Shown here in pieces: positions 1 to 55,638 of a stretch of 64,000 nucleotides of DNA. The notes beneath the pieces were generated by a model. It was not told the DNA's origin, searched no databases, and saw nothing but the letters and a program-made list of their open reading frames with translations. A program made the position numbers and the translations under genes. Origin of the DNA: Candidatus Nomurabacteria bacterium (GTDB lineage Bacteria; Patescibacteriota; Minisyncoccia; Phycocordibacterales; UBA9973); assembly GCA_963832025.1 (NCBI GenBank), contig CAWHSF010000003.1, forward strand, positions 143,665-207,664. Direction: 5' to 3'. Positions within the stretch are counted from its first letter, which is position 1; each line of letters opens with the position of its first letter.

Positions 1-1
1 T

Positions 2-1060
2 GTCACCATTGCTTCCACTGGAAATACTTCTGCCAATCCAAATGCAAAAAGAACCGTTACGGTAAAATACGGAGTTCCGTCTTTAGCTGTTTATTCTTTT
101 CTCAGCAATGACATTATTTGGATCGGTCCTTCGGAGACAGTCAATGGAGAAATGCAATCCAACAATGGAATTCGTTTTGACGGAGTTGGTAATGCTCCAA
201 TCATGTCTGCAAAATCTACCTACACTTGTTCTTCCGGACAAGGTAGCCCTTGCCCGCATACTGAAAACGGAGTGTGGGGTAGCGCAAGTCAGGCCGTGCA
301 AAGTTTTTGGCAATACCCTGTTCCATCAGTCGATTTTTCCGCACTTACTTCAAACTTGGCTAGCTTAAAAAGCTCAGCTCAAAGTGGAGGAATTTATTTA
401 CCACCTTCAAATACAAATGGTTATTCTTTAGTCTTTAATAGTAATGGAACGGTTTCAGTTTATAAAGTTACTTCTTTAGTAAATGATCCAACGGGCTGGG
501 ATGTATACAACAATGCTCATAATGAAAATATTGATTATGCTAATAGAACTTTACAATACACAGTCGCCATACCGAGTAATGGAATCATTTATATCGAAGA
601 CAACACTTGGGTAGAGGGAGTGGTAAATGGCCGAGTGATGTTGGCAGCAGCTAGTTTACCCTATGTCCCAAGTACCGCTCCGAATATTTACATCCAAAAT
701 AATTTAACCTATCAAGCAAAAGACGGCACAGATGTTTTGGGGCTACTCGCGCAAAACAGCATCGTGGTCAGTTATGGAGCGCCTTCAAATTTAGAAATTG
801 ACGGAGCCTTGATAGCGCAAAACGGAAGTGCGGAAATGTATTATTATCCAAGTGGCGCAATAAAAAATAATATTTCTATCTACGGAGCAATCATGACTTT
901 TGGACAATGGACTTGGAATTGGGTTGATGGAAACAACAATAATGTCTCGGGTTATGCAACAACCAGTGATACCTATGACAATAATCTCTTGTATGGCCCG
1001 CCTCCCGGCTTCCCTCTTTCTTCTTCCGGATACAAACAAATAAGCTGGATTAGTAATTAA
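2..1060 (+). CDS. 3' part of a large secreted/surface protein (5' end outside window), function unknown; neighbour of type IV pilus genes
   Basis: Frame is open from the window edge (VTIASTGNTSANPNAKRTVTVKYG...) into tracked ORF 152..1060. Asn/Ser/Thr/Gly-rich, no catalytic motif recognised. Confidence 0.5.
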   Translation, partial: VTIASTGNTSANPNAKRTVTVKYGVPSLAVYSFLSNDIIWIGPSETVNGEMQSNNGIRFDGVGNAPIMSAKSTYTCSSGQGSPCPHTENGVWGSASQAVQSFWQYPVPSVDFSALTSNLASLKSSAQSGGIYLPPSNTNGYSLVFNSNGTVSVYKVTSLVNDPTGWDVYNNAHNENIDYANRTLQYTVAIPSNGIIYIEDNTWVEGVVNGRVMLAAASLPYVPSTAPNIYIQNNLTYQAKDGTDVLGLLAQNSIVVSYGAPSNLEIDGALIAQNGSAEMYYYPSGAIKNNISIYGAIMTFGQWTWNWVDGNNNNVSGYATTSDTYDNNLLYGPPPGFPLSSSGYKQISWISN

Positions 1061-4506: not shown

Positions 4507-7500
4507 CTACTGCTCTATATACGTAGGTTTCATCTTGAATATAGAACACGAAGCAGTTGAGCCACTTGGCACACTGTCACAAATCCAAGTCCATTGTGAA
4601 GAGGTACTACTCTCACTAGAAGCATCTAATGTTCCTTGAGTACAAGTATTAATGGTTGTAGTAGAGCAAGAAACACTTCCTCCAGAAGGAGCTGCGTCTT
4701 GGCTAGCTGAACATATGCTGTCTGTGCCACTAGTTACGTGTAAACATTCCCAGTTTGCAGTTCCCCCTGGTGCTGGGAAAGAAATAACTGAAGGACTTTG
4801 GGTTCCTGACTCACAGAAAGTGTCAGAACCATAGCCCGGCCAATTGTAAGGGTAAGTTGTATTGTCTGCTGAACCACAAACTCCGTTAATAGAAGTTGCA
4901 GTAACACAAGTGCTACCATTCCAACTTGTGCCCGAAGTACAAGTGGCAGTCGATAAACTTGTCGCCAGTGATACAGCATTGTTATAAAGATAGAATGTCC
5001 TACCAGCATATGGAACAGCTAAGCCGTTTGCTGTGCCTGATTGAAAACTAGGACTGATTGTATTGGTTACATTTACGTTGGTCATTCCTGTCGCCGTAAT
5101 CGCAGTCGGAGTTCCGATTGGGTTAGTTATACTCCAGTTTAAGTTTACCGTACAAGTACTTGCTCCGGATAAAATGATACAGGAGGTGATGGGTGGAGTG
5201 AGGGTGCCGGACATTCCGACATTCCATTCGGAGAAGAAGAGCAAATACTTCCATTCCAACTTGTTCCCGAAGTACAAGTGGCTGTAGCTGAACTTGTAGC
5301 CAGTGATAGTGCATCATTGTAAAGATAGAATGTCCTACCTAGATATGGCACAACTAAACCGTTTGCTGTGCCTGATTGAAAACTAGGACTGATTGTATTG
5401 GTTACATTTACGTTGGTCATTCCTACTGCTGCAATCGCAGTCGGAGTTCCGATTGGGTTAGTTATACTCCAATTTAAGTTTACCGTGCAAGTACTTGCTC
5501 CGGATAGAATGATACAGGAGGAGGTGGGTGGAGTGAGGGTGCCGGTCATTACTAACTGACTAAACGTCGCGGTAACTGCTTTAGCTGCAGTCATGGTAAG
5601 AGAACATGTGCCTGTTCCGGTGCAAGCTCCAGTCCATCCGGTGAAGGTTGAGCCAGTGGTTGGGGTGGCGGTCAAAACTACTGCTGTGTTGTAGTTGTAA
5701 CTTTGAGAACAGTCAGCACCGCAACTGATACCGGCAGGACTACTGGTGACTGTTCCGGTGCCGGTGCCGGCAGGAGTGACAGTGAGAGCTTCTTGATTTG
5801 GAGAGCAGATAGTTCCGTTCCAAGTTGTGTTGGCGGCACAAGTTGCTGTAGCAACGCTGCTGTCGAGTTGAATAGCATCGTTGTAAAGATAGAATGTTCT
5901 ACCAGGATATGGCACAACTAAACCGGTTGCTGTGCCTGATTGAGGACTAGTTAAAGTTGTTGTTACATTTACGTTGGTCATTCCTGTCGCCGTAATCGCA
6001 GTCGGAGTTCCGATTGGGTTAGTTATACTCCAATTTAAGTTTACCGTACAAGTACTTGCTCCGGATAAGATCGTGCAAGAAATAGTCGCTGGAGTGAGCG
6101 TGCCGGTCATTTGAGTGAAGTTTGCAATCACCGTACAGTTGGCGGTAATTGCTCCGGTGGTATAAGTACTTCCAGACAATGTACCTCCACAAGTGCCGGT
6201 AGTTGTACCGATGGAGTAACCGGTACTGGGGGTGAGGGTGAAAGCTTTGTTGGAATCGTAATTAACTACTTGCACGTTACTTGGAGAGATGGTTCCACTA
6301 CCGGTTCCGACAGAGGGGGTGACGTTGTAGGTGTTGATTGTGAAGTTTGCAATCACCGTACAGTTGGCGGTAATTGCTCCCGTGGTGTAAGTACTTCCAG
6401 ATAGTGTACCTGCAGGACAAGTACCGGTAGTTGTACCGATGGAGTAACCGGTGCTTGCGGTGAGGGTGAAAGCTTTGGTGGAACCGTAATTAACTACTTG
6501 TGCGTTATTTGGAGAAATTGTTCCTCCGGTTCCGGCAGAAGGAGTGACGTTGTAGGTGTTGATTGTGAAGTTTGCAATCACCGTACAGTTGGCGGTAATT
6601 GCTCCCGTGGTGTAAGTACTTCCAGATAGTGTACCTGCAGGACAAGTACCGGTAGTTGTACCGATGGAGTAACCGGTGCTTGCGGTGAGGGTGAAAGCTT
6701 TGGTGGAACCGTAATTAACTACTTGTGCGTTATTTGGAGAAATTGTTCCCTCCGGTTCCGGCAGAAGGGGTGACGGTGTAGGTGTTGATTGTGAAGTTTG
6801 CAATCACCGTACAGTTGGCGGTAATTGCTCCCGTGGTGTAAGTACTTCCAGATAGTGTACCTGCAGGACAAGTACCGGTAGTTGTACCGATGGAGTAACC
6901 GGTACTTGCGGTGAGGGTGAAAGCTTTGGTGGAACCGTAATTAACTACTTGTGCGTTATTTGGAGAAATTGTTCCTCCGGTTCCGGCAGAGGGGGTGACG
7001 TTGTAGGTGTTGATTGTGAAGTTTGCAATCACCGTACAGTTGGCGGTAATTGCTCCCGTGGTGTAAGTACTTCCAGATAGTGTACCTGCAGGACAAGTAC
7101 CGGTAGTTGTACCGATGGAGTAACCGGTACTTGGGGTGAGGGTGAAAGCTTTGGTGGAACCGTAATTAACTACTTGTGCGTTATTTGGAGAAATTGTTCC
7201 TCCGGTTCCGGCAGAAGGAGTGACGGTGTAGGTGTTTAGCGTAAACGTCGCGGTAACTGCTTTAGCTGCAGTCATGGTAAGAGAACATGTGCCTGTTCCG
7301 GTGCAAGCTCCAGTCCATCCGGTGAAGGTTGAGCCAGTGGTTGGGGTGGCGGTCAAAACTACTGCTGTGTTGTAGTTGTAACTTTGAGAACAGTCAGCAC
7401 CGCAACTGATACCGGCAGGACTACTGGTGACTGTTCCGGTGCCGGTGCCGGCAGGAGTGACAGTGAGAGCTTCTTGATTTGGAGAGCAGATAGTTCCGTT

Positions 7501-8985
7501 CCAAGTTGTGTTGGCGGCGCAGGTACAATTAACAGTTAGGCCAGAACCGTTGGGAGAAGTCGGAACAAGCGATTTGGCATTATTGTAAAGATAGAAAGTT
7601 TTACCAGCATATGGGACAGTCGTTGGCACACTAGTTCCAGAATCTCCCAAAAAGACGTTTACACCAGAACTAGTTATAGCAGAACCATTTGGAACTTCTG
7701 GATTTGTAACATTCCAAGTTAAATTTACAGTACCACTACCAGAATTAGCTGGAACAGTACAAGCCGTAGCACTCATCGTACCCGACATAGTACCAACAAT
7801 AATAGTAAATGGTATTTGTGGGCCAAAAGCAGTGCTTCCATTAAACATCTGCCATATTTCTGTGTATGTCTTAGCGGCAGATGGAGCAGTTAAAGAACTT
7901 AAGGAAAAAGTTGTTGTTGCGTTAGAAGCAACATCGGCGCTACCACTAGTAGATTCTGTATATACTGCACTACAGTTGGTATTGCTGTTCCACGTTCCAC
8001 CACATCCAGCCTGACAGACATTGGAACTTGTCCCGCAACCTACGCTTCCATTAACAGTACATGAATTTGCGAGACCATTCCAGCTTCCGCCACACATTCC
8101 ACAATTACTAGCGTTAGCACTACAGTTAAAAGAACCACTAGAAGAACACGAACCCAAACACGATTGAGAGTTATATTTACACGTCTGAGTGGTTGTCTGA
8201 CTATATGGTATGGGATTCGGACTAGAACTAAAGCCTCCAGTAATATCTTTCAGTTTGATTGTGCTTGAATAATTTGTGATCGTGGCTGTACATGTGTCTC
8301 CTAAAGTTGTAGGACAAGAATAGAGACCATCAGTTGCTCCACAGTCTGATGATTTAGAAATCGATTTTTGGTCTGACACCCAATTAGGAGTTGCGCCAGT
8401 GCTGGTATTTTTGATAGTAAATATGTAAGGCCCACTTACTTGGCTTGTGTTCATCTGAGTCGGCATACTCGGAGAAAGTGGAGATACAAAAGAATCATTT
8501 AAGGTAGTTGATGGAGAGCCAAAAGATGCAGTACCGTCTGAAAGATAAGTAACAGAACCCCAAGGCGCATAACCTGGATATGGATTAGAATTTAAAGTAA
8601 AAGAATATGTTCCCTGCTCAGGATGATCACTTGTGCCACAATTATTATAACTTGAATTATAAGCCGTTTGTGTAATGGTAATATTACTAGAAGGAATACT
8701 TCCAGATACTCCATCAATTGTATATGAAAGATAACCACCCGACTCGAAGATGTCTAGTGGAGGACTTAATCCGAGTGTATTATCACATGTGACAGTTTGA
8801 ACGTTATAGCCACTTGAGAAAGTTCCAGAAATGGTAATACTGCTACTAGTAGAACTGGCACCCACGGTGACATTGGAAGTACAGCCACTGCCAGTGCATG
8901 ATGCTTTTGTCGTGGAAACATTAAAGAGAGCAAATAGAGCAATAACTGCTATAAGCAAACCAGAAACAAAAATTTTCTTTTTCAT
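4507..8985 (-). CDS. giant repeat-rich secreted surface protein (adhesin-like, InlB-B-repeat-like modules); reading frame interrupted twice
   Basis: Signal peptide MKKKIFVSGLLIAVIALFALF. Three tracked ORFs (6730..9021, 5145..6803, 4507..5277) join at protein-repeat level. They are broken by an extra C at 6748-6750 and an 8-bp tandem duplication at 5210-5225. The first and third ORFs share a frame (9021-5277=3744). Confidence 0.75.
5210..5225. repeat. perfect 8-bp tandem duplication (gacattcc x2) causing a frameshift in the surface protein gene
   Basis: Read directly. Deleting one unit restores ...CSSSPNGMSGTLTPPITSC..., which matches the other module junctions. Confidence 0.85.
5561..5837. 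repeat. 277-bp direct repeat, copy 1 (partner at 7242-7518)
   Basis: taaacgtcgcggtaactgctttagctgcagtcatgg...ccaagttgtgttggcggc appears identical by eye in both places. Confidence 0.85.
6115..7240. repeat. tandem array, 5 x 225 bp (75-aa module FTINTYxVTPSAGTGGTISPNNAQVVNYGSTKAFTL...CTVIAN)
   Basis: The marker gtgaagtttgcaatcaccg recurs at 6115, 6340, 6565, 6791 and 7016. The single 226-bp period contains the extra C. Confidence 0.9.
7242..7518. repeat. 277-bp direct repeat, copy 2
   Basis: See the partner at 5561-5837. Encodes the same ...EALTVTPAGTGTGTVTSSPAGISCGADC... module. Confidence 0.85.
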
Positions 8986-10456: not shown

Positions 10457-12481
10457 ATGAGTAACTTTTTATTGTTTGCAATGTTGAGTGCGGTGATAGC
10501 TATCGTTTACGGTTTATTTTTAGCGAAAACAATATTAAAAAAGAGCGCCGGTAATGCTCGTATGCAAGAAATCGCCAAAGCGATTCAAGAAGGCGCGAGT
10601 GCTTATTTAAATAAACAATATAAAACTATCGGCATGATTGCGGTAGTTCTTTTTTTTATCATCGGCTCGGTGCCAAAACTCGGCTGGACGATGGCTTGTG
10701 GATTTTTAGTTGGAGCAGTCTTTTCTGCTTTGGCTGGATACATCGGTATGAATGTTTCCGTTCGAGCAAATGTTCGCACCACCGAAGCCGCTCGCGGTGG
10801 AATCAATGAAGCTCTTTCTCTCGCTTTCAAGGGTGGCACAGTTACCGGACTTTTAGTCGTTGGCCTGGCTCTGCTTGGAGTAACCGTTTTTTATGCAATT
10901 ACCAAAGATGTGACAGCCCTTGTCGGACTTGGTTTTGGCGCTTCGCTCATCTCGGTTTTTGCCAGACTGGGTGGAGGAATTTTTACTAAAGCAGCGGATG
11001 TCGGCGCGGACCTCGTGGGAAAACTCGAAGCTGGAATTCCGGAAGATGATCCTAGAAATCCAGGGGTGATTGCGGACAATGTCGGAGACAACGTCGGAGA
11101 CTGTGCAGGAATGGCCGCTGACTTGTTTGAAACTTATGCGGTCACTTCCGTCGCCACAATGCTCTTGGGCTCACTTATTTTTGCCGGTTTTCAAAATGCA
11201 CTTGTCTACCCTCTCGTGATTGGTGGTATTGCAATTTTTGCATCCATCATCGGAACTTGGTTTGTTCGATTGAGTAAAAAAGGGAATCAGTCAGACAACA
11301 TCATGGGAGCTTTATATAAAGGACTAATCGCTGCTGGAGTAATCGCTGCTATAGCATTCTATCCTGTTACAAAACTATTGATGTCAGGCAACGGCAGATA
11401 CTCTGTAATGAATTTATTCATCTGCTCTCTGGTTGGTCTTTTTGTCACCGGAGCTCTCGTCGTAATCACCGAATATTTTACTTCTACAAAATATTCTCCT
11501 GTTAAATCCATTGCAAAGGCATCCGTCTCCGGACACGGAACAAATGTGATTCAAGGATTAGCTGTTTCCATGAAATCTACCGCGTTGCCATTAATCACGA
11601 TTGTTCTAGGGATCATCATAAGTTATTACTACGGCGGACTTTACGGTATTGCTGTCGCTGCCATGTCCATGCTTTCTATGACCGGTATTGTTGTGGCAAT
11701 TGATGCATATGGTCCAATTACCGATAACGCCGGAGGAATTGCCGAAATGGCTGAACTTCCAAAGGAAGTTCGTGATGTGACTGATCCACTCGATGCTGTC
11801 GGTAATACCACTAAAGCTGTTACTAAAGGTTATGCAATCGGTTCCGCAGGACTCGCATCTCTCGTGCTCTTTGCTTCTTACACCGAAGAAATTGTAAAAG
11901 CTGGAAAAAGTATTTCCTTTGATTTAAGTAATCCTTATGTAATTGTCGGTCTCTTCTTGGGTGGGTTATTACCATATTATTTCGGCGCACTCTGCATGGA
12001 AGCTGTCGGAAAAACTGCCGGCAAAGTAGTGGAAGAAATTCGCCGACAGTTTAGAGAAATAAAAGGAATCATGGAAGGTAGCGCAAAACCAGATTATGCA
12101 AAAGCTGTCTCCATTATCACAGGTGAAGCGATACACCAAATGATTCTGCCTGCATTGATTCCCGTTCTTGCGCCAATTTTAGTAATTTTAATTTTCGGAA
12201 AAACTAACGGTTTAATAGTTTTGGGTGGATTGTTGGTTGGTTCCATTATCACCGGACTATTCGTCGCAATCTCCATGACTTCCGGTGGAGGTGCTTGGGA
12301 TAATGCAAAAAAATATATTGAACAAGGAAATTTTGGCGGCAAAGGCAGTGAAGCGCACAAGGCCGCAGTCACCGGAGACACCGTGGGTGACCCCTACAAA
12401 GACACCGCCGGTCCGGCCATCAACCCGATGATTAAAATCTTGAACATCGTGGCCTTGCTTTTAGTCATCTTCTTAATCTAA
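10457..12481 (+). CDS. hppA: membrane-bound ion-translocating pyrophosphatase
   Basis: 674 aa polytopic. Motifs [18 protein letters not shown] and [17 protein letters not shown]. Confidence 0.9.
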
Positions 12482-12500
12482 ATAAAAATTGTCGAAGGTG

Positions 12501-12616
12501 TAGTTTTTATGAAACTTTGTGCAGGTCATTCGACTCTGAGAGTCTCAGACTCGATGAGCGGGTAGCCGAGCAAAGCAAAAATTCAGCAGAATTTTATGCG
12601 TGTTGAATAAAAACTA
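12501..12616. repeat. family-B palindromic element, 116 bp (inverted twin at 54417-54532)
   Basis: The reverse complement matches 54417-54532 at 114/116 positions. Core gcgggtagccgagca, outer arms tagtttttatgaaac / gttgaataaaaacta. Confidence 0.9.
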
Positions 12617-12646
12617 TACCGAGAAAGATTTTTATTTAAACAACAT

Positions 12647-29788: not shown

Positions 29789-29810
29789 CAACCCCACCTG
29801 TGGATAACTC

Positions 29811-29856
29811 TCCAGACGTTGGACGTCTGTGTTCTTACAGACGTCCAACGTCTGGA
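29811..29856. repeat. family-A nested palindrome
   Basis: Arms tccagacgttggacgtctg / cagacgtccaacgtctgga (19 bp, 8-nt loop). Each arm is itself palindromic (cagacgt tgg acgtctg). Confidence 0.9.
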
Positions 29857-29871
29857 ATTCTGTCGTTTATT

Positions 29872-32542: not shown

Positions 32543-32604
32543 CCTCCAGACGTCCAACGTCTGGAGGAGATGTTGGACACCTGCTTTGCAGATGTCCAAC
32601 ATCT
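32543..32604. repeat. two adjacent family-A hairpins upstream of metK
   Basis: cctccagacgt cca acgtctggagg (32543-32567). agatgttggaca ... tgtccaacatct (32568-32604); the latter is an inverted relative of 43673-43709. Confidence 0.9.
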
Positions 32605-32622
32605 AGTGTTATACTCAAAACT

Positions 32623-37416: not shown

Positions 37417-37450
37417 ATATATATTGTAGCAGATTTTTAAACTTGTTGCA

Positions 37451-37543
37451 GGCGTGCTTTTTAGAAAGCCTTGCGTAGGCGGACGCGCCGAGCAGTTCGC
37501 TGGCGTAGCAACGCCAGATAGATTGCTTTATAAAAAGCACGCC
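37451..37543. repeat. family-B palindromic element (diverged copy)
   Basis: Outer arms ggcgtgctttttagaaagc / gctttataaaaagcacgcc, core ccttgcgtaggcgg..gccgagcagttcgc, inner hairpin ctggcgt agca acgccag. Confidence 0.85.
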
Positions 37544-37568
37544 AAGAAAGAGTTTATAAATCTTCCTC

Positions 37569-37832: not shown

Positions 37833-37890
37833 GCTTCAAATATTAGCATAAATAAGGGAAAAATGCAAGTCCTAAGGGCCATCAAGGGAA

Positions 37891-37980
37891 ATTGTTGTTT
37901 TAGAAAGCCTTGCGCAGGCGGGTAGCCGAGCAGTTCGCTCCGCAAGCTTGCGGAGATAGATTGCTTTATAAAATAACAAT
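37891..37980. repeat. family-B palindromic element (diverged copy)
   Basis: Arms attgttgttttagaaagc / gctttataaaataacaat, core ccttgcgcaggcgggtagccgagcagttcgc, inner perfect palindrome ctccgcaagcttgcggag. Confidence 0.85.
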
Positions 37981-38023
37981 TCCCGAAGATGGAAAATATT
38001 GTGCGACATGCTAAAATGAACAG

Positions 38024-39814: not shown

Positions 39815-39933
39815 AAGCTTTGTGAATTATAATTTTTAAGAGACTTTGCGCAGGCGGGTAGCCGAGCAGGAACAAATTTTCAACAGAAAATTATGTGTGT
39901 CGATTAAAAATTGATAATTCATGAAGCTTTGTG
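39814..39933. mobile_element. family-B MITE-like element with terminal inverted repeats and an 11-bp flanking direct repeat
   Basis: The direct repeat gaagctttgtg at 39814-39824 and 39923-39933 flanks TIRs gaattataatttttaagagac / gtcgattaaaaattgataattc and the core gcgcaggcgggtagccgagca. Confidence 0.7.
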
Positions 39934-39946
39934 TTAAAATTTAGAC

Positions 39947-43667: not shown

Positions 43668-43672
43668 CAACC

Positions 43673-43709
43673 AGACGTTGGACATCTGCAAAGCAGGTGT
43701 CCAACGTCT
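43673..43709. repeat. family-A hairpin just after the Cys-rich gene stop
   Basis: agacgttggaca tctgcaaagcagg tgtccaacgtct. The loop is the reverse complement of the 32580-32592 loop. Confidence 0.9.
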
Positions 43710-43713
43710 CAAA

Positions 43714-52267: not shown

Positions 52268-54391
52268 GTGACAGATGAGACAAAACATTTGGAAGGATTA
52301 AACCCTGAGCAAAAAGAGGCGGCGCTTCATATGAAGGGTCCGCTTCTTATTGTGGCTGGAGCGGGAGCGGGCAAGACTAAAACTATTACGCACAGAATTG
52401 TGAATCTGATAAAGAATGGCGTTCCTCCAGAAAAAATATTGGCGGTGACATTTACCAACAAGGCTGCGAAGGAAATGCGAGAGAGAGTCATTGCAGAAAT
52501 TAATAAAAACTTCGTCGGCAATGCCTTTTCTCAGGTCCTCGGTTCTCCGGGTCCCTATCCCGGCCAGACCATTCCAAAAGGCCTTGCCGACTTCGTAAAT
52601 AAGGCACCTTTTGTCAGCACCTTTCATTCTTTGGGAGTTTTTATTATAAAAGAAAACGCCAGATTGCTTGGGCTGACTAGGTATTTCACGATTTTGGATG
52701 AGGGAGATTCGACAGGAATGATAAAAGAAATAATGAAAAGCTTGGGGATAGACCCAAAACAATACGATCCGAAAAAAATAAAAAATATTATTTCGCGCGA
52801 GAAAGGAAAATTTGTTTATTTAACGGAATACACGGAAAGAGAAAATAGCAGTCTGGGAAGAATTGTAGCCCAAATCTGGAATTTATATGAGAAACAAAAA
52901 ATGAAGGAAAATTCTTTGGATTTTGACGATTTACTTTTAAAAGCGACAAAATTGTTAAAAGACAACAAGGAAATTAGGGAACTTTATCAAGATAAATGGG
53001 AATATATTCATATAGACGAATATCAAGACACCAATGAAGTGCAATATTTGATGACCAAATTGCTTTCCGAAAAATACAAAAATATTTGCGTGGTCGGGGA
53101 TGCAGACCAGAATATTTATTCTTGGCGCGGAGCAAATTTAAAAAATATTTTGAGTTTTGAGAAAGATTATCCGAATGCAAAAATAATTTTATTGGAGCAA
53201 AATTATCGCTCGACCAAAAATATTCTGGAAGCGGCAAATGAAATCATTAAAAAAAATAAATATAGACCGGATAAAAATTTATTTACAAAAAATGTTGTCG
53301 GAGAAAAAATCGGCTTGTATGAAGCATTGGATGAAACCGACGAAGCGGATTTTGTAGCGACAAAAATTTTAGAACTAATGGACAAGGGAAAAGATTTGTT
53401 TTTGCGGGGTCTCTCGCAGGCCGACGGGCCGAGAGGGAACGCTGTGCGAGCACGCACAGACAGTGACCTCGCAAAAACAGAATCTTTTTCTTTGTCCGAA
53501 ATCGCCCTGTTATATCGCGCAAATTTTCAATCGCGCGCGCTGGAAGAAGCCATGCTTCGCTACAACATTCCATACCAAGTTTTGGGTGTTAAGTTTTTTG
53601 AAAGAAAAGAAATCAAAGACACTTTGGCATATCTGCGCGCAGCGCTGAATCCGGAAAGTTTGTCCGACATAAAAAGAATAATAAATTTCCCGGCGCAGAG
53701 GCATCGGCAAGGTTACATTATTGAAAATATTTGCCGGAGAACGGGAAACTTTACCGATAAAAGTAAGAATTAAAGTTGATAATTTTTATACAACATTGGA
53801 AGAAATAAAAGAAAAAATATTAAAAGTGAAAAAACGAGCGAGGTAATAAAATTTGTAGTGAAAAAATCCGGCATTGAACAAGAATTGAGTAGCGGGGGAG
53901 ATGAAGATATTGAAAGATTGGAAAACATAAAAGAGCTTGCGACCTTGGCATTAAAATATGATAATTTAGAAAATGGAGCCGGTGTAGAAAAACTTTTAGA
54001 AGATGCATCATTGGCATCGGACCAAGATTCACTGATGATAAATCAAGAGAAGAAAGAAAGAAAAGAAGTAAATGCAGTGAAATTAATGACCGTGCATGCG
54101 TCAAAAGGCCTTGAATTCAAATACGTTTTTGTCACTGGTTTGGAAGATGGACTTTTCCCGCACGAAAGACAAAATGAAGGACAGAGTGGTGAAGACAGAG
54201 AAGAAGAACGCAGACTTTTTTACGTGGCGCTGACCAGAGCTAAAGAAAAATTATTTTTATCTTTAGCAAATTTCCGTACAATTTTCGGCTCACGCAACAT
54301 AAACGCACCATCAGAATTTATTAGCGACATACCGGCAGATTTATTAGAAAAAGAAGGAGAGGGGCACGGCATAAAAACAATTTATTTATGA
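52268..54391 (+). CDS. pcrA: UvrD/PcrA-family superfamily-1 DNA helicase; a 140-nt internal segment lies in a shifted frame
   Basis: AGAGAGKTKTITHR, TFTNKAAKEM, HIDEYQDTN, VGDADQNIYSWRGA, YRSTKNIL, LLYRANFQSR and VKLMTVHASKGLEF motifs. The motif RGIGKVTLLKIF is readable only in the +1 frame between about 53696 and 53834. Confidence 0.88.
53391..53487. repeat. family-B-like element in frame inside pcrA
   Basis: Arms agatttgtttttgcg / cgcaaaaacagaatct. Interior tcgcaggccgacgggccgagag resembles the core gcgcaggcgggtagccgagca. Encodes DLFLRGLSQADGPRGNAVRARTDSDLAKTESF. Confidence 0.7.
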
Positions 54392-54416
54392 TGGAGAACA
54401 AAATTCTTTCTTGGTA

Positions 54417-54532
54417 TAGTTTTTATTCAACACACATAAAATTCTGCTGAATTTTTGCTTTGCTCGGCTACCCGCTCATCGAGTCTGAGACTCTCAGAGT
54501 CGAATGACCTGCGCAAAGTTTCATAAAAACTA
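54417..54532. repeat. family-B palindromic element, 116 bp (inverted twin of 12501-12616)
   Basis: 114/116 identical to the reverse complement of 12501-12616. Confidence 0.9.
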
Positions 54533-54563
54533 CACCTGCAACGAATTTTGTTTAACAAAGAAG

Positions 54564-55508
54564 ATGCAACATAAAGCAAAAAAAACATTGGGGCAAAACT
54601 TTTTAAAATCGGAGCTAGCTCTGCGAAAGATTATTGAAGTCGGTGAAATAAAACCTGATGATATTATTTTAGAAATTGGTCCAGGAAAAGGTGCGCTGAC
54701 AAAAAAAATTTTAGAAAAAGCTGGAACGGTAATCGCTGTTGAAAAAGACCGTGAGTTGATAGAATTTTTGAAAACAAAATTTGCAAAAGAAATCACGACA
54801 AAAAAAATAATTTTGGTTGAAGATGATATTTTAAAATTTAATCTGGAGCAAGATATTCTCGAGCGAACCCTTGGTAGGAGCGACGGCGACGGACAGAGAA
54901 AATTTTCAGCAGAAAATTTTCGTGGTGAGTCCGAGAATATTTTGCTCCCGATTTCCTATAAAATTATTGCAAACATTCCATACAATATTACCGGCGCAAT
55001 CTTGAAAAGATTTTTGACAGAAAAAAACCAGCCGGAGCGCATGGTCTTGATGGTCCAAAACGAAGTGGCAAAAAGAATCGTGGCTTCCGACAAAAAAGAA
55101 AGTGTTCTTTCCATCTCCGTGAAAGCTTACGGTGAACCAAAAATGGTGATGAAGGTGCCAGCTCGATATTTTTCTCCAGAACCCAAGGTGGACTCCGCCA
55201 TAATTATTATAAAAAATATTTCTCGCAGACTTTTTGAAAAAAATAATACCTCACCCCAACCCTCTCCTTGCCAAGGAGAGGGGGGCAACGGGACTGTCCA
55301 AAATAAAATTTTGGACAGTCAGGCATTTGAAGAAAAATTTTGGGAAATAGTAAAAACCGGGTTTGCTCATAAGAGAAAAAAACTATCTGGCAACTTAAAA
55401 TCTCTCAAAAATTACGAAGTTTTAACAAAAAATGACTTTATGCAAACTTTGGGGAATAAAAGAGCGGAAGATTTGACGCTGGAGGATTGGATTTCGTTGA
55501 CTAAATAG
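54564..55508 (+). CDS. rsmA: 16S rRNA (adenine1518/1519-N6)-dimethyltransferase
   Basis: LGQNFL, EIGPGKGALT and ANIPYNIT motifs. Start trimmed to the ATG at 54564. Confidence 0.9.
   Translation: MQHKAKKTLGQNFLKSELALRKIIEVGEIKPDDIILEIGPGKGALTKKILEKAGTVIAVEKDRELIEFLKTKFAKEITTKKIILVEDDILKFNLEQDILERTLGRSDGDGQRKFSAENFRGESENILLPISYKIIANIPYNITGAILKRFLTEKNQPERMVLMVQNEVAKRIVASDKKESVLSISVKAYGEPKMVMKVPARYFSPEPKVDSAIIIIKNISRRLFEKNNTSPQPSPCQGEGGNGTVQNKILDSQAFEEKFWEIVKTGFAHKRKKLSGNLKSLKNYEVLTKNDFMQTLGNKRAEDLTLEDWISLTK
54853..54940. repeat. family-B-like element in frame inside rsmA/ksgA
   Basis: Terminal inverted repeats atattctcg / cgagaatat. Interior aaaattttcagcagaaaattttc matches the cagcagaa(a)tt signature of the intergenic copies. 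Encodes ILERTLGRSDGDGQRKFSAENFRGESENI. Confidence 0.7.
55248..55320. repeat. compound insertion in rsmA/ksgA: family-C palindrome plus a 13-bp-stem hairpin
   Basis: ccctctccttg c caaggagaggg (55260-55282) and gactgtccaaaat aaa attttggacagtc (55292-55320). Encodes TSPQPSPCQGEGGNGTVQNKILDSQ. Confidence 0.8.
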
Positions 55509-55510
55509 CT

Positions 55511-55556
55511 TCCAGACGTTGGACGTCTGTATCCGTCCAGACGTCCAACGTCTGGA
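55511..55556. repeat. family-A nested palindrome just after the ksgA stop
   Basis: Arms are identical to 29811-29856 (tccagacgttggacgtctg / cagacgtccaacgtctgga); the loop differs. Confidence 0.9.
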
Positions 55557-55638
55557 GATGCTCATAAACCTTGTTGGACTTGTTTTTTATTGATATAATC
55601 AAGCTATAAATAAATTATTTTGGTCAAAACACAAGAGG

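What the first reader, a model, noticed from the sequence alone, without database searches (positions are those of the whole stretch)
12501..12616. 116-bp long-hairpin element present as two almost identical inverted copies 42 kb apart
The reverse complement of 12501-12616 equals 54417-54532 except for two substitutions. Both copies are intergenic (hppA|tig and pcrA|ksgA).

The element is an imperfect long palindrome with core gcgggtagccgagca.

Three diverged relatives (37451-37543, 37891-37980, 39825-39920) keep the core. Their outer and inner stems change in a base-pair-preserving way: ggcgtgcttttt.../...aaaaagcacgcc versus attgttgtttt.../...aaaataacaat, and ctggcgt/acgccag versus ctccgcaag/cttgcggag. 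Such compensatory changes suggest selection on a DNA or RNA fold.
Basis: seen in the sequence. Interest (0 to 1): 0.65.

Follow-up and report, generated by a model that had tools for sequence, protein, structure and literature searches.

The report
Palindromic repeat that also invades genes
The 116-bp hairpin is one copy of a widespread, structurally conserved palindromic repeat of tiny groundwater (CPR/Paceibacteria) bacteria that sits between genes and also, in frame, inside essential protein genes, much like the selfish "palindromic elements" known so far mainly from Rickettsia.

Summary
The two inverted copies differ by two substitutions, and both substitutions keep a G·U pair on one strand. 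The three relatives share the core and show compensatory stem changes.

A covariance model found two more copies in the window. Both lie in frame inside genes, one in pcrA and one in ksgA.

The exact 23-nt core occurs at 61 loci in CPR/Paceibacteria genomes. A variant occurs at 102 metagenome loci. Of 107 variant copies, 67 lie inside long ORFs in one reading frame. They interrupt at least 11 unrelated housekeeping genes: PcrA, KsgA, MetK, Fmt, Dus, PolA, TsaD, RecG, UvrC, CCA enzyme and PGM/PMM. Orthologous genes exist both with and without the insert.

The fold is a long rod ending in a three-way junction. It is strongly supported by covariation. G·U pairs far outnumber A·C mismatches, so one strand is constrained.

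No Rfam family matches, and no paper was found describing it in CPR.

Best reading: a new family of non-autonomous, structure-constrained palindromic repeats, like Rickettsia RPEs or enterobacterial ERIC. It is neither a discrete sRNA gene nor a terminator. How it spreads, and which protein recognises its core, remain unknown.

The parts
12479..12638 (+). Copy 1, canonical type A. It fills the hppA|tig spacer.
   Evidence: I1, I10; CM hit of 65 bits.
12525..12557 (+). Private 33-nt extra hairpin (GTCATTCGACTCTGAGAGTCTCAGACTCGATGA). It is inserted in the apex between GCAG and GCGGGTAGCC and is shared only with copy 2.
   Evidence: The near-identical element L012 in a related genome lacks it.
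54397..54554 (-). Copy 2. Its inner 116 nt are almost identical to copy 1. It fills the pcrA|ksgA spacer. Its outer loop differs from copy 1 (GUUGCA/AAGAAA).
   Evidence: CM hit of 68 bits.
37431..37563 (+). Copy 3, type B, with the outer motif and apex GGCG GACG CGCC. It sits in the rpsO|NYN spacer, antisense to both genes.
   Evidence: (I5). The orthologous spacer in L062 instead holds a plain terminator hairpin.
37886..37984 (+). Copy 4, type B. It sits in the divergent spacer between rpsO and a Xer-type recombinase gene. Orthologous copies occur in L062, L052 and L036.
39815..39929 (+). Copy 5, type A, between xth and a TMEM175-like gene. Its 3' arm supplies a TTGATA -35-like box.
   Evidence: Orthologous spacers in L036, L037 and L052 hold a copy, and the copy in L056 is in the opposite orientation.
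53386..53491 (+). Copy 6, a diverged type B copy inserted in frame in pcrA. It encodes ~LFLRGLSQADGPRGNAVRARTDSDLAKTESF. P1, P2, the apex and P3 all show compensatory changes.
   Evidence: CM hit of 32.5 bits, E 3.8e-6. Fold of -57.4 kcal/mol, z -7.1. PcrA alignment shows the insert at query aa 377-410 against 350-352.
54840..54953 (+). Copy 7, the intragenic variant, inserted in frame in ksgA. It encodes ILERTLGRSDGDGQRKFSAENFRGESENIL.
   Evidence: CM hit of 32.6 bits, E 3.5e-6. Fold z -5.8. KsgA alignments show 12 orthologues with an empty site.

Best explanation
**What it is.** The hairpin is a member of a previously undescribed family of short (about 90-160 bp), non-coding-by-origin palindromic repeats of Paceibacteria (Candidate Phyla Radiation).

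**Architecture.** Each copy is a long imperfect inverted repeat (the rod, helices P0/P1). At its tip is an asymmetric, conserved three-way junction made of two parts:
- P2 is xUUGC-GCA-[hairpin]-GA-GCAx'.
- P3 is a variable hairpin of two types.

**Behaviour that is shown.**
- Copies are duplicated or copied to new places, and exchange parts with one another. The inner part of copy 1 equals that of copy 2, while their outer parts differ.
- They land in intergenic spacers in either orientation.
- They also land in frame in loops of housekeeping proteins, where one hydrophilic reading frame is retained and translated. This parallels Rickettsia palindromic elements (RPEs).

**What is inferred.**
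- The fold of one strand (the 'sense' strand) is under purifying selection, as RNA or as single-stranded DNA. The evidence is compensatory change, tolerated G·U pairs and purged A·C mismatches.
- Most likely the folded single strand, with its conserved junction, is what an unidentified trans-acting protein recognises for copying or conversion.
- A secondary contributor may be the harmless or mildly useful effects of the transcript hairpin, such as spacer structure or promoter -35 boxes.

**What is unknown.** The enzyme and the chemistry of movement are not known. No transposase and no target-site duplication were found.
For: **Family and structure.**
- The 23-mer core occurs at 61 loci in CPR genomes.
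- The CM found 83 hits in 464 kb of those loci and 114 hits in 701 kb of metagenome loci. It found 7 copies in this 64-kb window.
- Covariation is strong.
- Diverged copies show compensation in P2 and the apex.
- The sense strand folds better in 52 of 63 copies.
- G·U versus A·C is 17:3 and 113:42.
- Both substitutions between the two window copies are C/U opposite G.

**Mobility or copying.**
- Near-identical copies sit at non-orthologous sites. Examples are copy 1 versus copy 2, and copy 1 versus L012 in another genome.
- Filled and empty orthologous sites exist for the rpsO|NYN spacer, for metK (window empty, L011 filled, 84% aa identity) and for ksgA (11 filled, 12 empty).
- The copy in one orthologous spacer, in L056, is in the opposite orientation.
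- A public assembly contig breaks inside the element.

**Intragenic behaviour.**
- In-frame inserts occur in pcrA and ksgA.
- They also occur in pepN (antisense), Dus and MetK.
- 67 of 107 variant copies lie in long ORFs, all in one frame.
- Hosts confirmed by Pfam are Fmt, MetK, PGM/PMM, CCA/polyA polymerase, Dus, PolA, TsaD, RecG and UvrC. PcrA and KsgA add to these.

**Not a UTR element.** Flanking-gene orientations are 14/12/10/10.

**Not a known family.** Rfam gives no match. Literature searches found nothing for CPR.
Against: - No transposase, reverse transcriptase or other mobilising gene was identified. The search for one was limited.
- No target-site duplication is visible in the one clean filled/empty pair.
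- The termini are not uniformly conserved, unlike classical MITEs.
- The 23-nt core is identical across class-level CPR lineages and at orthologous spacers whose neighbouring proteins are only 60-85% identical. This is more conservation than selfish repeats usually show and hints at an in-situ function.
- No copy was found in viral contigs that could explain horizontal spread.
- Copy counts are inflated by shared ancestry, and the variant set was ascertained with an exact 26-mer.
- No phylogeny-aware covariation test such as R-scape was run.
Confidence: 0.6

Rival explanations
1. It is a functional structured RNA module: a protein-binding three-way junction with a K-turn-like GCA/GA loop. It would act in cis on transcripts (stability, processing, localisation) or in trans as a multicopy sRNA. 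Dispersal and the intragenic copies would be secondary.
For: - The core is identical in about 50 species and at orthologous spacers with diverged neighbours.
- Covariation is strong and one strand shows a G·U bias.
- Apex hairpins vary in length and sequence while the loop nucleotides GCAG...CGAGCA stay fixed.
- 67 of 70 intragenic copies are in mRNA sense.
Against: - Orientation relative to neighbouring genes is random.
- There is no consistent promoter or terminator.
- The intragenic variant has lost the conserved core yet still occupies many genes.
- Only one of the two open sense frames is used, which is the signature of selection on the peptide rather than on the RNA alone.
- The element is absent from orthologous sites in relatives without obvious compensation.
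Confidence: 0.2
2. The compensatory pattern is a mutational by-product. Replication template switching in quasi-palindromes, and arm-to-arm or copy-to-copy conversion, would keep the arms complementary without any selection on a fold.
For: - Compensated indels occur in arms of orthologous MetK copies (GGGAGAAU..AUUCUCCC versus GGGCAGAAU..GUUCUGCCC).
- The inner part of copies 1 and 2 is homogenised while their outer parts differ.
- Template switching is known to create and maintain hairpins (PMC8794818, PMC7202029).
Against: - Template switching predicts perfect Watson-Crick arms and no strand asymmetry. Observed G·U greatly exceeds A·C.
- It cannot explain the conserved, non-palindromic junction (P2/P3) or its covariation.
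Confidence: 0.08
3. It is a DNA-level site, a hairpin or cruciform recognised by a recombinase, nucleoid or replication protein. For example, it could be linked to the Xer recombinase or FtsK genes that neighbour several copies.
For: - Copies sit next to a Xer-type recombinase gene in the window and in 6 loci, and next to ftsK in 6 loci.
- Insensitivity to orientation fits a DNA site.
Against: - Those neighbourhoods are simply syntenic regions of related genomes. Most copies are elsewhere.
- The strand-specific G·U bias argues against a symmetric duplex or cruciform site.
- There is no orientation bias along contigs (8 same-strand pairs against 7 opposite).
Confidence: 0.06
4. It is a bidirectional intrinsic transcription terminator or mRNA 3'-end protector.
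For: - Many copies have AAAACUC...GAGUUUU outer ends.
- Copy 3 occupies the place of a plain terminator hairpin seen in a relative.
Against: - No terminator-like site was called at any window copy.
- 12 of 46 copies lie in divergent spacers where no terminator is needed.
- Copies lie inside ORFs in mRNA sense, where termination would be lethal.
Confidence: 0.05

Closest known systems
Rickettsia palindromic elements (RPE-1 to RPE-10; Ogata et al. 2000, as summarised in PMC2229807 and PMC10969869)
   Same: - Imperfect palindromes of about 100-150 bp that fold into long stem-loops.
- Many dispersed copies in a reduced genome.
- Found in spacers and fused in frame into unrelated, conserved housekeeping genes, with one conserved peptide frame.
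- No associated transposase and unclear target-site duplication.
- Conserved at orthologous positions between species.
   Different: - A different phylum (CPR/Paceibacteria).
- The tip is a branched three-way junction with a 23-nt core that is invariant across many genera.
- Modular subtypes exist: two P3 types, several apex types and an optional outer loop.
- A strand-specific G·U bias is documented here.
- Sequence relationship to RPEs could not be tested with these tools.
ERIC/IRU (127-bp enterobacterial repetitive intergenic consensus)
   Same: - An imperfect palindrome found in either orientation in spacers.
- Conserved across genera.
- Size variants arise from internal insertions, like the 33-nt and roughly 40-nt apex inserts here.
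- Occasionally intragenic.
   Different: - ERIC is a simple hairpin of Gammaproteobacteria with short conserved terminal repeats and TA duplication.
- Here there is a branched apex, no target-site duplication seen, and far more intragenic copies.
Classical bacterial MITEs (Correia/NEMIS, RUP, BOX)
   Same: Small, non-autonomous, multicopy and hairpin-forming. They can donate promoter elements (here a -35-like box in the 3' arm of copy 5).
   Different: - In MITEs the terminal inverted repeats are the conserved part and match a parent IS.
- Here the centre is the most conserved part, and no parent IS or target-site duplication was found.
REP/BIME elements with RAYT transposases; integron attC sites
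   Same: Recognition is thought to depend on a folded single strand rather than on sequence. Stems covary.
   Different: - REPs are 20-40 bp with GTAG/CGTC tags and lie next to RAYT genes.
- attC sites have R''/R' core sites and sit in one orientation in cassette arrays next to intI.
- None of these features is present here.

Membership tests
RPE-like protein-coding palindromic repeats (kind) | Imperfect palindrome of about 100-150 bp predicted to form a long stem-loop | tested here: met
   Folds of -41 to -57 kcal/mol, z -4.2 to -7.3.
RPE-like protein-coding palindromic repeats (kind) | Many dispersed copies per genome, in spacers and in genes | tested here: met
   7 copies in 64 kb. 83 hits in 464 kb and 114 hits in 701 kb of related loci.
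RPE-like protein-coding palindromic repeats (kind) | In-frame fusion into unrelated conserved protein genes, with one conserved peptide frame | tested here: met
   - pcrA and ksgA.
- 67 of 70 intragenic variant copies are in one frame.
- At least 11 host families.
- Empty orthologous sites exist.
RPE sequence families of Rickettsia (membership proper) | Sequence similarity to RPE-1..10 and occurrence in Rickettsiales | not testable with these tools
   No Rickettsia sequence collection is available. All hosts here are CPR/Patescibacteria MAGs, so this would be an independent family.
Classical MITE | Conserved terminal inverted repeats matching a parent insertion sequence | tested here: not met
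   The arms differ between subfamilies while the centre is conserved. No parent IS was seen in the flanks of the 61 genome loci by ORF clustering. That search was not exhaustive.
Classical MITE | Target-site duplication | tested here: inconclusive
   In one clean filled/empty pair (metK), the junctions TCTAAA|AGGGAG and CTCCCT|GACGGA show no duplication. In the rpsO spacer the whole terminator is replaced.
Described structured RNA families (Rfam 15) | Match to a covariance model | tested here: not met
   No hit at the elements at gathering score or at E<=10.
Independent sRNA gene | Own promoter and terminator, and a consistent transcription unit | tested here: inconclusive
   Promoter-like hits are at chance level and there are no terminator-like sites. 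Transcription itself cannot be tested here.
Cis-regulatory UTR element | Fixed orientation and position relative to a regulated gene class | tested here: not met
   Flank orientations are (+,-)14, (-,+)12, (+,+)10 and (-,-)10. The neighbouring genes are diverse.
Intrinsic terminator | GC-rich stem directly followed by a U-tract, located after genes | tested here: not met
   0 sites at the window copies. 12 of 46 copies are in divergent spacers. Sense copies lie inside ORFs.
Integron attC | R''/R' core sites (RYYYAAC/GTTRRRY), same-orientation arrays next to intI | tested here: not met
   Read directly from the sequences: the ends lack these cores. Orientation is mixed. The neighbouring recombinase is a syntenic Xer-type gene.
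REP/BIME | 20-40 bp palindromes with a GTAG or CGTC tag, linked to RAYT genes | tested here: not met
   The size is 90-160 bp and the apex is branched. No RAYT was seen among the recurrent neighbours.
Kink-turn motif (for the P2 internal loop) | C-stem, 3-nt bulge, then tandem G·A / A·G pairs | tested here: inconclusive
   The sequence UUGC-GCA-GG...CC-GA-GCA has the 3-nt bulge and one possible G·A, but position 2b is G rather than A (read). No 3D test was possible.

The most novel reading that the evidence does not exclude
The conserved three-way junction may be the recognition module of a so far unknown, structure-guided copying system of CPR bacteria. It could work through an RNA or single-stranded-DNA intermediate, possibly with copy-to-copy 'homing' into existing elements. 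If so, this family would be a new class of mobile element. Its presence in sense orientation in many essential mRNAs would also give those mRNAs a shared structured RNA tag with a cellular role.
Probability: 0.15. Interest if true: 0.85.

Novelty: new variant of a known kind. Interest (0 to 1): 0.64.

Why it matters
**Why it is unusual.** In-frame 'protein-coding palindromes' have been treated as a peculiarity of Rickettsia and Wolbachia. Their mode of spread has stayed unknown for 25 years.

**What this family adds.** An independent and much larger family exists in the Candidate Phyla Radiation, another lineage with tiny genomes and a symbiotic lifestyle. This suggests the phenomenon is a recurrent outcome of genome reduction.

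**How it helps find the mechanism.** The family offers several handles:
- thousands of metagenomic copies
- a sharply conserved structured core
- filled and empty orthologous sites

**Practical consequences.**
- The elements break assemblies.
- They create false start codons. The longest ORF for ksgA begins at an ATG (54504) inside copy 2.
- They add 30-40 residue loops to core enzymes. CPR protein annotation and structure prediction should take this into account.

Tried and rejected
- **Rfam.** Searches at gathering score and at E<=10 found nothing at the elements.
- **tRNA or tmRNA origin.** Nothing was found at the elements.
- **Viral contigs.** A scan for the core gave 0 hits.
- **Protein word search with the inserted peptide.** The second found only 5 short ORFs and was uninformative.
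- **The outer motif (CGTYGMAGG...CCRAGAAAG) as a separate target hairpin.** No 'empty' outer motif exists in the loci.
- **Arms as inverted duplications of host flanks.** The empty metK site holds neither arm, and subtype arms share a consensus across host genes. Rejected.
- **The 33-nt apex insert as its own mobile hairpin.** It is found only in the two window copies.
- **A regex census of the outer-loop covariation (GCA/AAG versus GAA/GAG).** It captured too few copies. The association read by eye involves only two lineages, so it is not claimed as structural covariation.
- **Recurrent neighbour genes (PNPase, NYN, Xer, FtsK).** They reflect synteny among related genomes, not a dedicated partner.
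- **Papers.** Two could not be opened.

Full report
**1. The observation**

The segment 12501-12616 and the reverse complement of 54417-54532 differ at two positions only, 12520 T/C and 12600 C/T. The inverted similarity runs further, over 12479-12636 and 54397-54554: 158 nt, 94%.

The 15-mer GCGGGTAGCCGAGCA occurs four times in the window against 0.33 expected. The fifth relative has GCGGACGCGCCGAGCA.

The three shorter relatives (37451, 37891, 39825) are all on the + strand. They lack a 33-nt hairpin (12525-12557) that the two long copies carry in the apex. That insert occurs nowhere else in the data fetched.

All copies fold far better than shuffled sequence, and the + (sense) strand folds better than its complement.

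- H+-pyrophosphatase
- trigger factor
- the C-terminal part of PcrA, and KsgA

**2. Anatomy**

Every copy is a rod closed by its two ends (helix P1). In a subfamily the rod is extended by an outer helix P0, such as AAACUC/GAGUUU, and a conserved internal loop, 5' GUYGMA / 3' RAGAAA. At the tip is a three-way junction.

- P2 reads x-UUGC | GCA | hairpin | GA | GCA-x'. The hairpin is usually GGC-GGGUA-GCC.
- P3 is a hairpin of two types:
  - type A is AGCAA-stem-AGCA-stem-UAUGCGUG
  - type B is GUUCG-CUCCGCA-AGCU-UGCGGAG-AUAGAUUGC

These features are read.

**3. The family outside the window**

The exact 23-mer TTGYGYAGGCGGGTAGCCGAGCA occurs in 61 stretches of the species-representative genome collection. 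All are Patescibacteria/CPR MAGs: Paceibacterota, Nomurabacteria, Taylorbacteria and others. There are typically one to three per genome at this stringency. No viral contig has it.

A public assembly contig of the window's own organism breaks inside copy 1, as expected for a repeat.

Rfam has no matching family, either at gathering score or at E<=10. Full-text searches found nothing on such elements in CPR.

**4. Covariation**

In a gapless alignment of 48 type-A copies:
- The proposed 20 pairs are 97.9% paired, against 77.1% when partners are shuffled and 31-47% when they are slid.
- There are 183 double-change cells against 48.
- The pair closing P2 (x-x') is C-G 24 times, A-U 22 times and U-A once.

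RNAalifold on 64 copies gives 7 P3 pairs with no broken cell and 12-35 double changes each.

A covariance model built on this structure recovers diverged copies. Their P2 and apex also change compensatorily:
- UUGC/GCA becomes UCGC/GCG or UUAC/GUA.
- GGC/GCC becomes GCC/GGC, GGCC-GACG-GGCC or GCGC...GCGC.
- In some copies the apex is replaced by a hairpin of about 40 nt.

What stays fixed is the loop GCAG...CGAGCA, not the apex.

**5. Which strand**

- The sense strand folds better in 52 of 63 copies, by 5.5 kcal/mol on average.
- Over the annotated pairs, G·U versus A·C is 17:3 in canonical copies and 113:42 in the variant family. 27 of those 42 A·C sit at one fixed position.
- The two substitutions separating the window's twin copies are both C/U opposite G.

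A neutral palindrome, or one kept by template switching, should show no such asymmetry. So one strand is constrained, as RNA or as single-stranded DNA.

**6. Not a UTR element, terminator or obvious sRNA gene**

- Relative to the nearest long ORFs, the 46 scorable copies are convergent 14, divergent 12, co-directional 10 and anti-directional 10.
- No terminator-like site is called at any window copy, and promoter-like hits are at chance frequency.
- Orientation of neighbouring copies on one contig is mixed: 8 same-strand pairs against 7 opposite.

**7. Copies inside genes**

The model found two further copies in the window, both in gene sense:
- 53400-53486, inside pcrA
- 54859-54944, inside ksgA

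Alignment to solved structures shows that each coincides with an insertion:
- PcrA query residues 377-410 stand against residues 350-352 of the Geobacillus enzyme.
- KsgA query residues 100-132 stand against 114-122.

Both still fold as rod plus junction, with z -7.1 and -5.8. Both are read in the same frame relative to the element.

Related genomes add more cases:
- an M1 aminopeptidase carries a complete type-B copy in antisense orientation
- Dus carries a sense copy
- MetK carries the same peptide variant as the window's KsgA

**8. The intragenic variant is common**

The variant's 26-mer occurs in 102 metagenome stretches.

| Class of copy (of 107) | Number |
|---|---|
| Inside long ORFs, one sense frame | 67 |
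| Inside long ORFs, antisense frames | 3 |
| Outside long ORFs | 22 |
| At contig ends | 15 |

By my own reading of the consensus, four of its six frames are free of stop codons.

The hosts fall into at least 10 clusters. Pfam identifies them as Fmt, MetK, PGM/PMM, CCA/poly(A) polymerase, Dus, PolA, TsaD, RecG and UvrC. PcrA and KsgA add to these.

The arms of these copies still covary: 12 of 13 P1 pairs show double changes, and 89.2% of cells are paired against 76.8%.

**9. Filled and empty sites**

- *KsgA.* Orthologues in the fetched loci are 11 filled and 12 empty at the same loop. The filled ones carry different inner-arm subtypes. This implies replacement by conversion or repeated insertion.
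- *MetK.* The window's own metK is empty where L011's (84% identical) carries 102-123 extra nucleotides. No target-site duplication is visible.
- *rpsO|NYN spacer.* A close relative (PNPase 89% identical) holds a plain terminator hairpin where the window has copy 3.
- *xth|TMEM175 spacer.* It holds a copy in several relatives, and the copy in L056 is in the opposite orientation.
- *The twin copies.* Copies 1 and 2 share their inner 116 nt and a private insert, but differ in the outer loop and P0. L012, in another genome, is nearly identical to copy 1 but lacks the insert and sits elsewhere.

Together these results show copying between loci and exchange between copies.

**10. Interpretation**

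The features match the kind of element described for Rickettsia as RPEs. Those are 105-146-bp palindromes found in spacers and fused in frame into conserved genes, with a conserved peptide and an unknown mechanism (PMC2229807, PMC10969869). They resemble ERIC less closely.

The differences are:
- the host phylum
- the branched junction
- the exceptional conservation of the core across many genera
- the modular subtypes
- the documented one-strand constraint

I therefore file it as a new, independent family of RPE-like structured palindromic repeats. It is not a member of any described family.

The mechanism of spread is inferred, not shown. The folded sense strand, with its conserved junction, is the most plausible recognition target.

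Three rivals cannot be excluded:
- a true in-situ RNA function
- a DNA site
- mutational maintenance of palindromes by template switching (PMC8794818, PMC7202029)

They are weighed in the rival explanations.

**11. Limits**

- Counts of cells are not independent events, because many copies share ancestry.
- The variant set was ascertained with an exact 26-mer.
- No whole genomes, transcriptomes or proteomes were available.
- No phylogeny-aware covariation statistic was run.
- The search for a mobilising gene was limited to recurrent neighbours in 8-kb flanks.

Noticed in passing
window 29809-29857, 32545-32608, 43670-43710, 55510-55558: A second, unrelated repeat family. It consists of paired short palindromes TCCAGACGTTGGACGTCTG...CAGACGTCCAACGTCTGGA (REP-like double hairpins), mostly just outside genes. 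One pair lies at the 5' end of the metK ORF as listed (D7, D8, I2, I3).
   Followed up: no
window 52485-52615 (pcrA, about aa 76-113): A further insertion of about 29 aa relative to solved PcrA. It folds as a long hairpin GUCGGCAAUGCCUUUU...AAAAGGCCUUGCCGAC, z -3.5. Its peptide VGNAFSQVLGSPGP..GQTIPKGLADF recurs in the KsgA of L073. It is probably a second family of in-frame palindromic elements.
   Followed up: partly
window 55260-55282 (ksgA, about aa 230-250): A perfect 10-bp palindrome CCCTCTCCTTGCCAAGGAGAGGG inside ksgA, encoding SPQPSPCQGEGG. A similar SPQPSPLQGEG occurs in the CCA enzyme of L088. It is probably a third small in-frame palindrome family.
   Followed up: partly
window about 53700-53860: pcrA appears to be split. 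ORF 52268-53773 loses similarity to PcrA after RIINFPA (aa 477). The C-terminal UvrD_C part continues in another frame, in ORF 53858-54391. This could be a frameshift, an assembly error or a pseudogene.
   Followed up: no
window 54504-54563: The longest ORF for ksgA starts at an ATG inside copy 2 of the element. Similarity to KsgA begins only after the Met at 54564. The element's conserved UAUGCGUG also supplies spurious ATG starts in other loci.
   Followed up: partly
window 39911-39940: The 3' arm of copy 5 provides a TTGATA -35-like box 18 nt upstream of TG-TAAAAT, just before the TMEM175-like gene. The TTGATA is conserved in the orthologous arms of L036, L037 and L056.
   Followed up: no
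window 4900-7620: Large tandem repeats with periods of about 225 and 335 nt lie inside two adjacent long ORFs that carry InlB B-repeat-like domains. These are probably surface proteins.
   Followed up: no
L059 892-976 (-) and 1133-1217 (+): Two canonical copies lie back-to-back within 330 nt in one spacer.
   Followed up: no
L009 3538-6258 (-): The M1 aminopeptidase that hosts an antisense copy also contains other odd low-complexity inserts (PNPSSKRRGGFPLPLRRGSAKGEGVRV, SKLARRGGDKTT). These may be further decayed repeats.
   Followed up: no
L001 1-40 (Logan contig ERR11523672_1822885): A public assembly of the same organism ends inside copy 1. This shows that the repeat breaks short-read assemblies.
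   Followed up: yes
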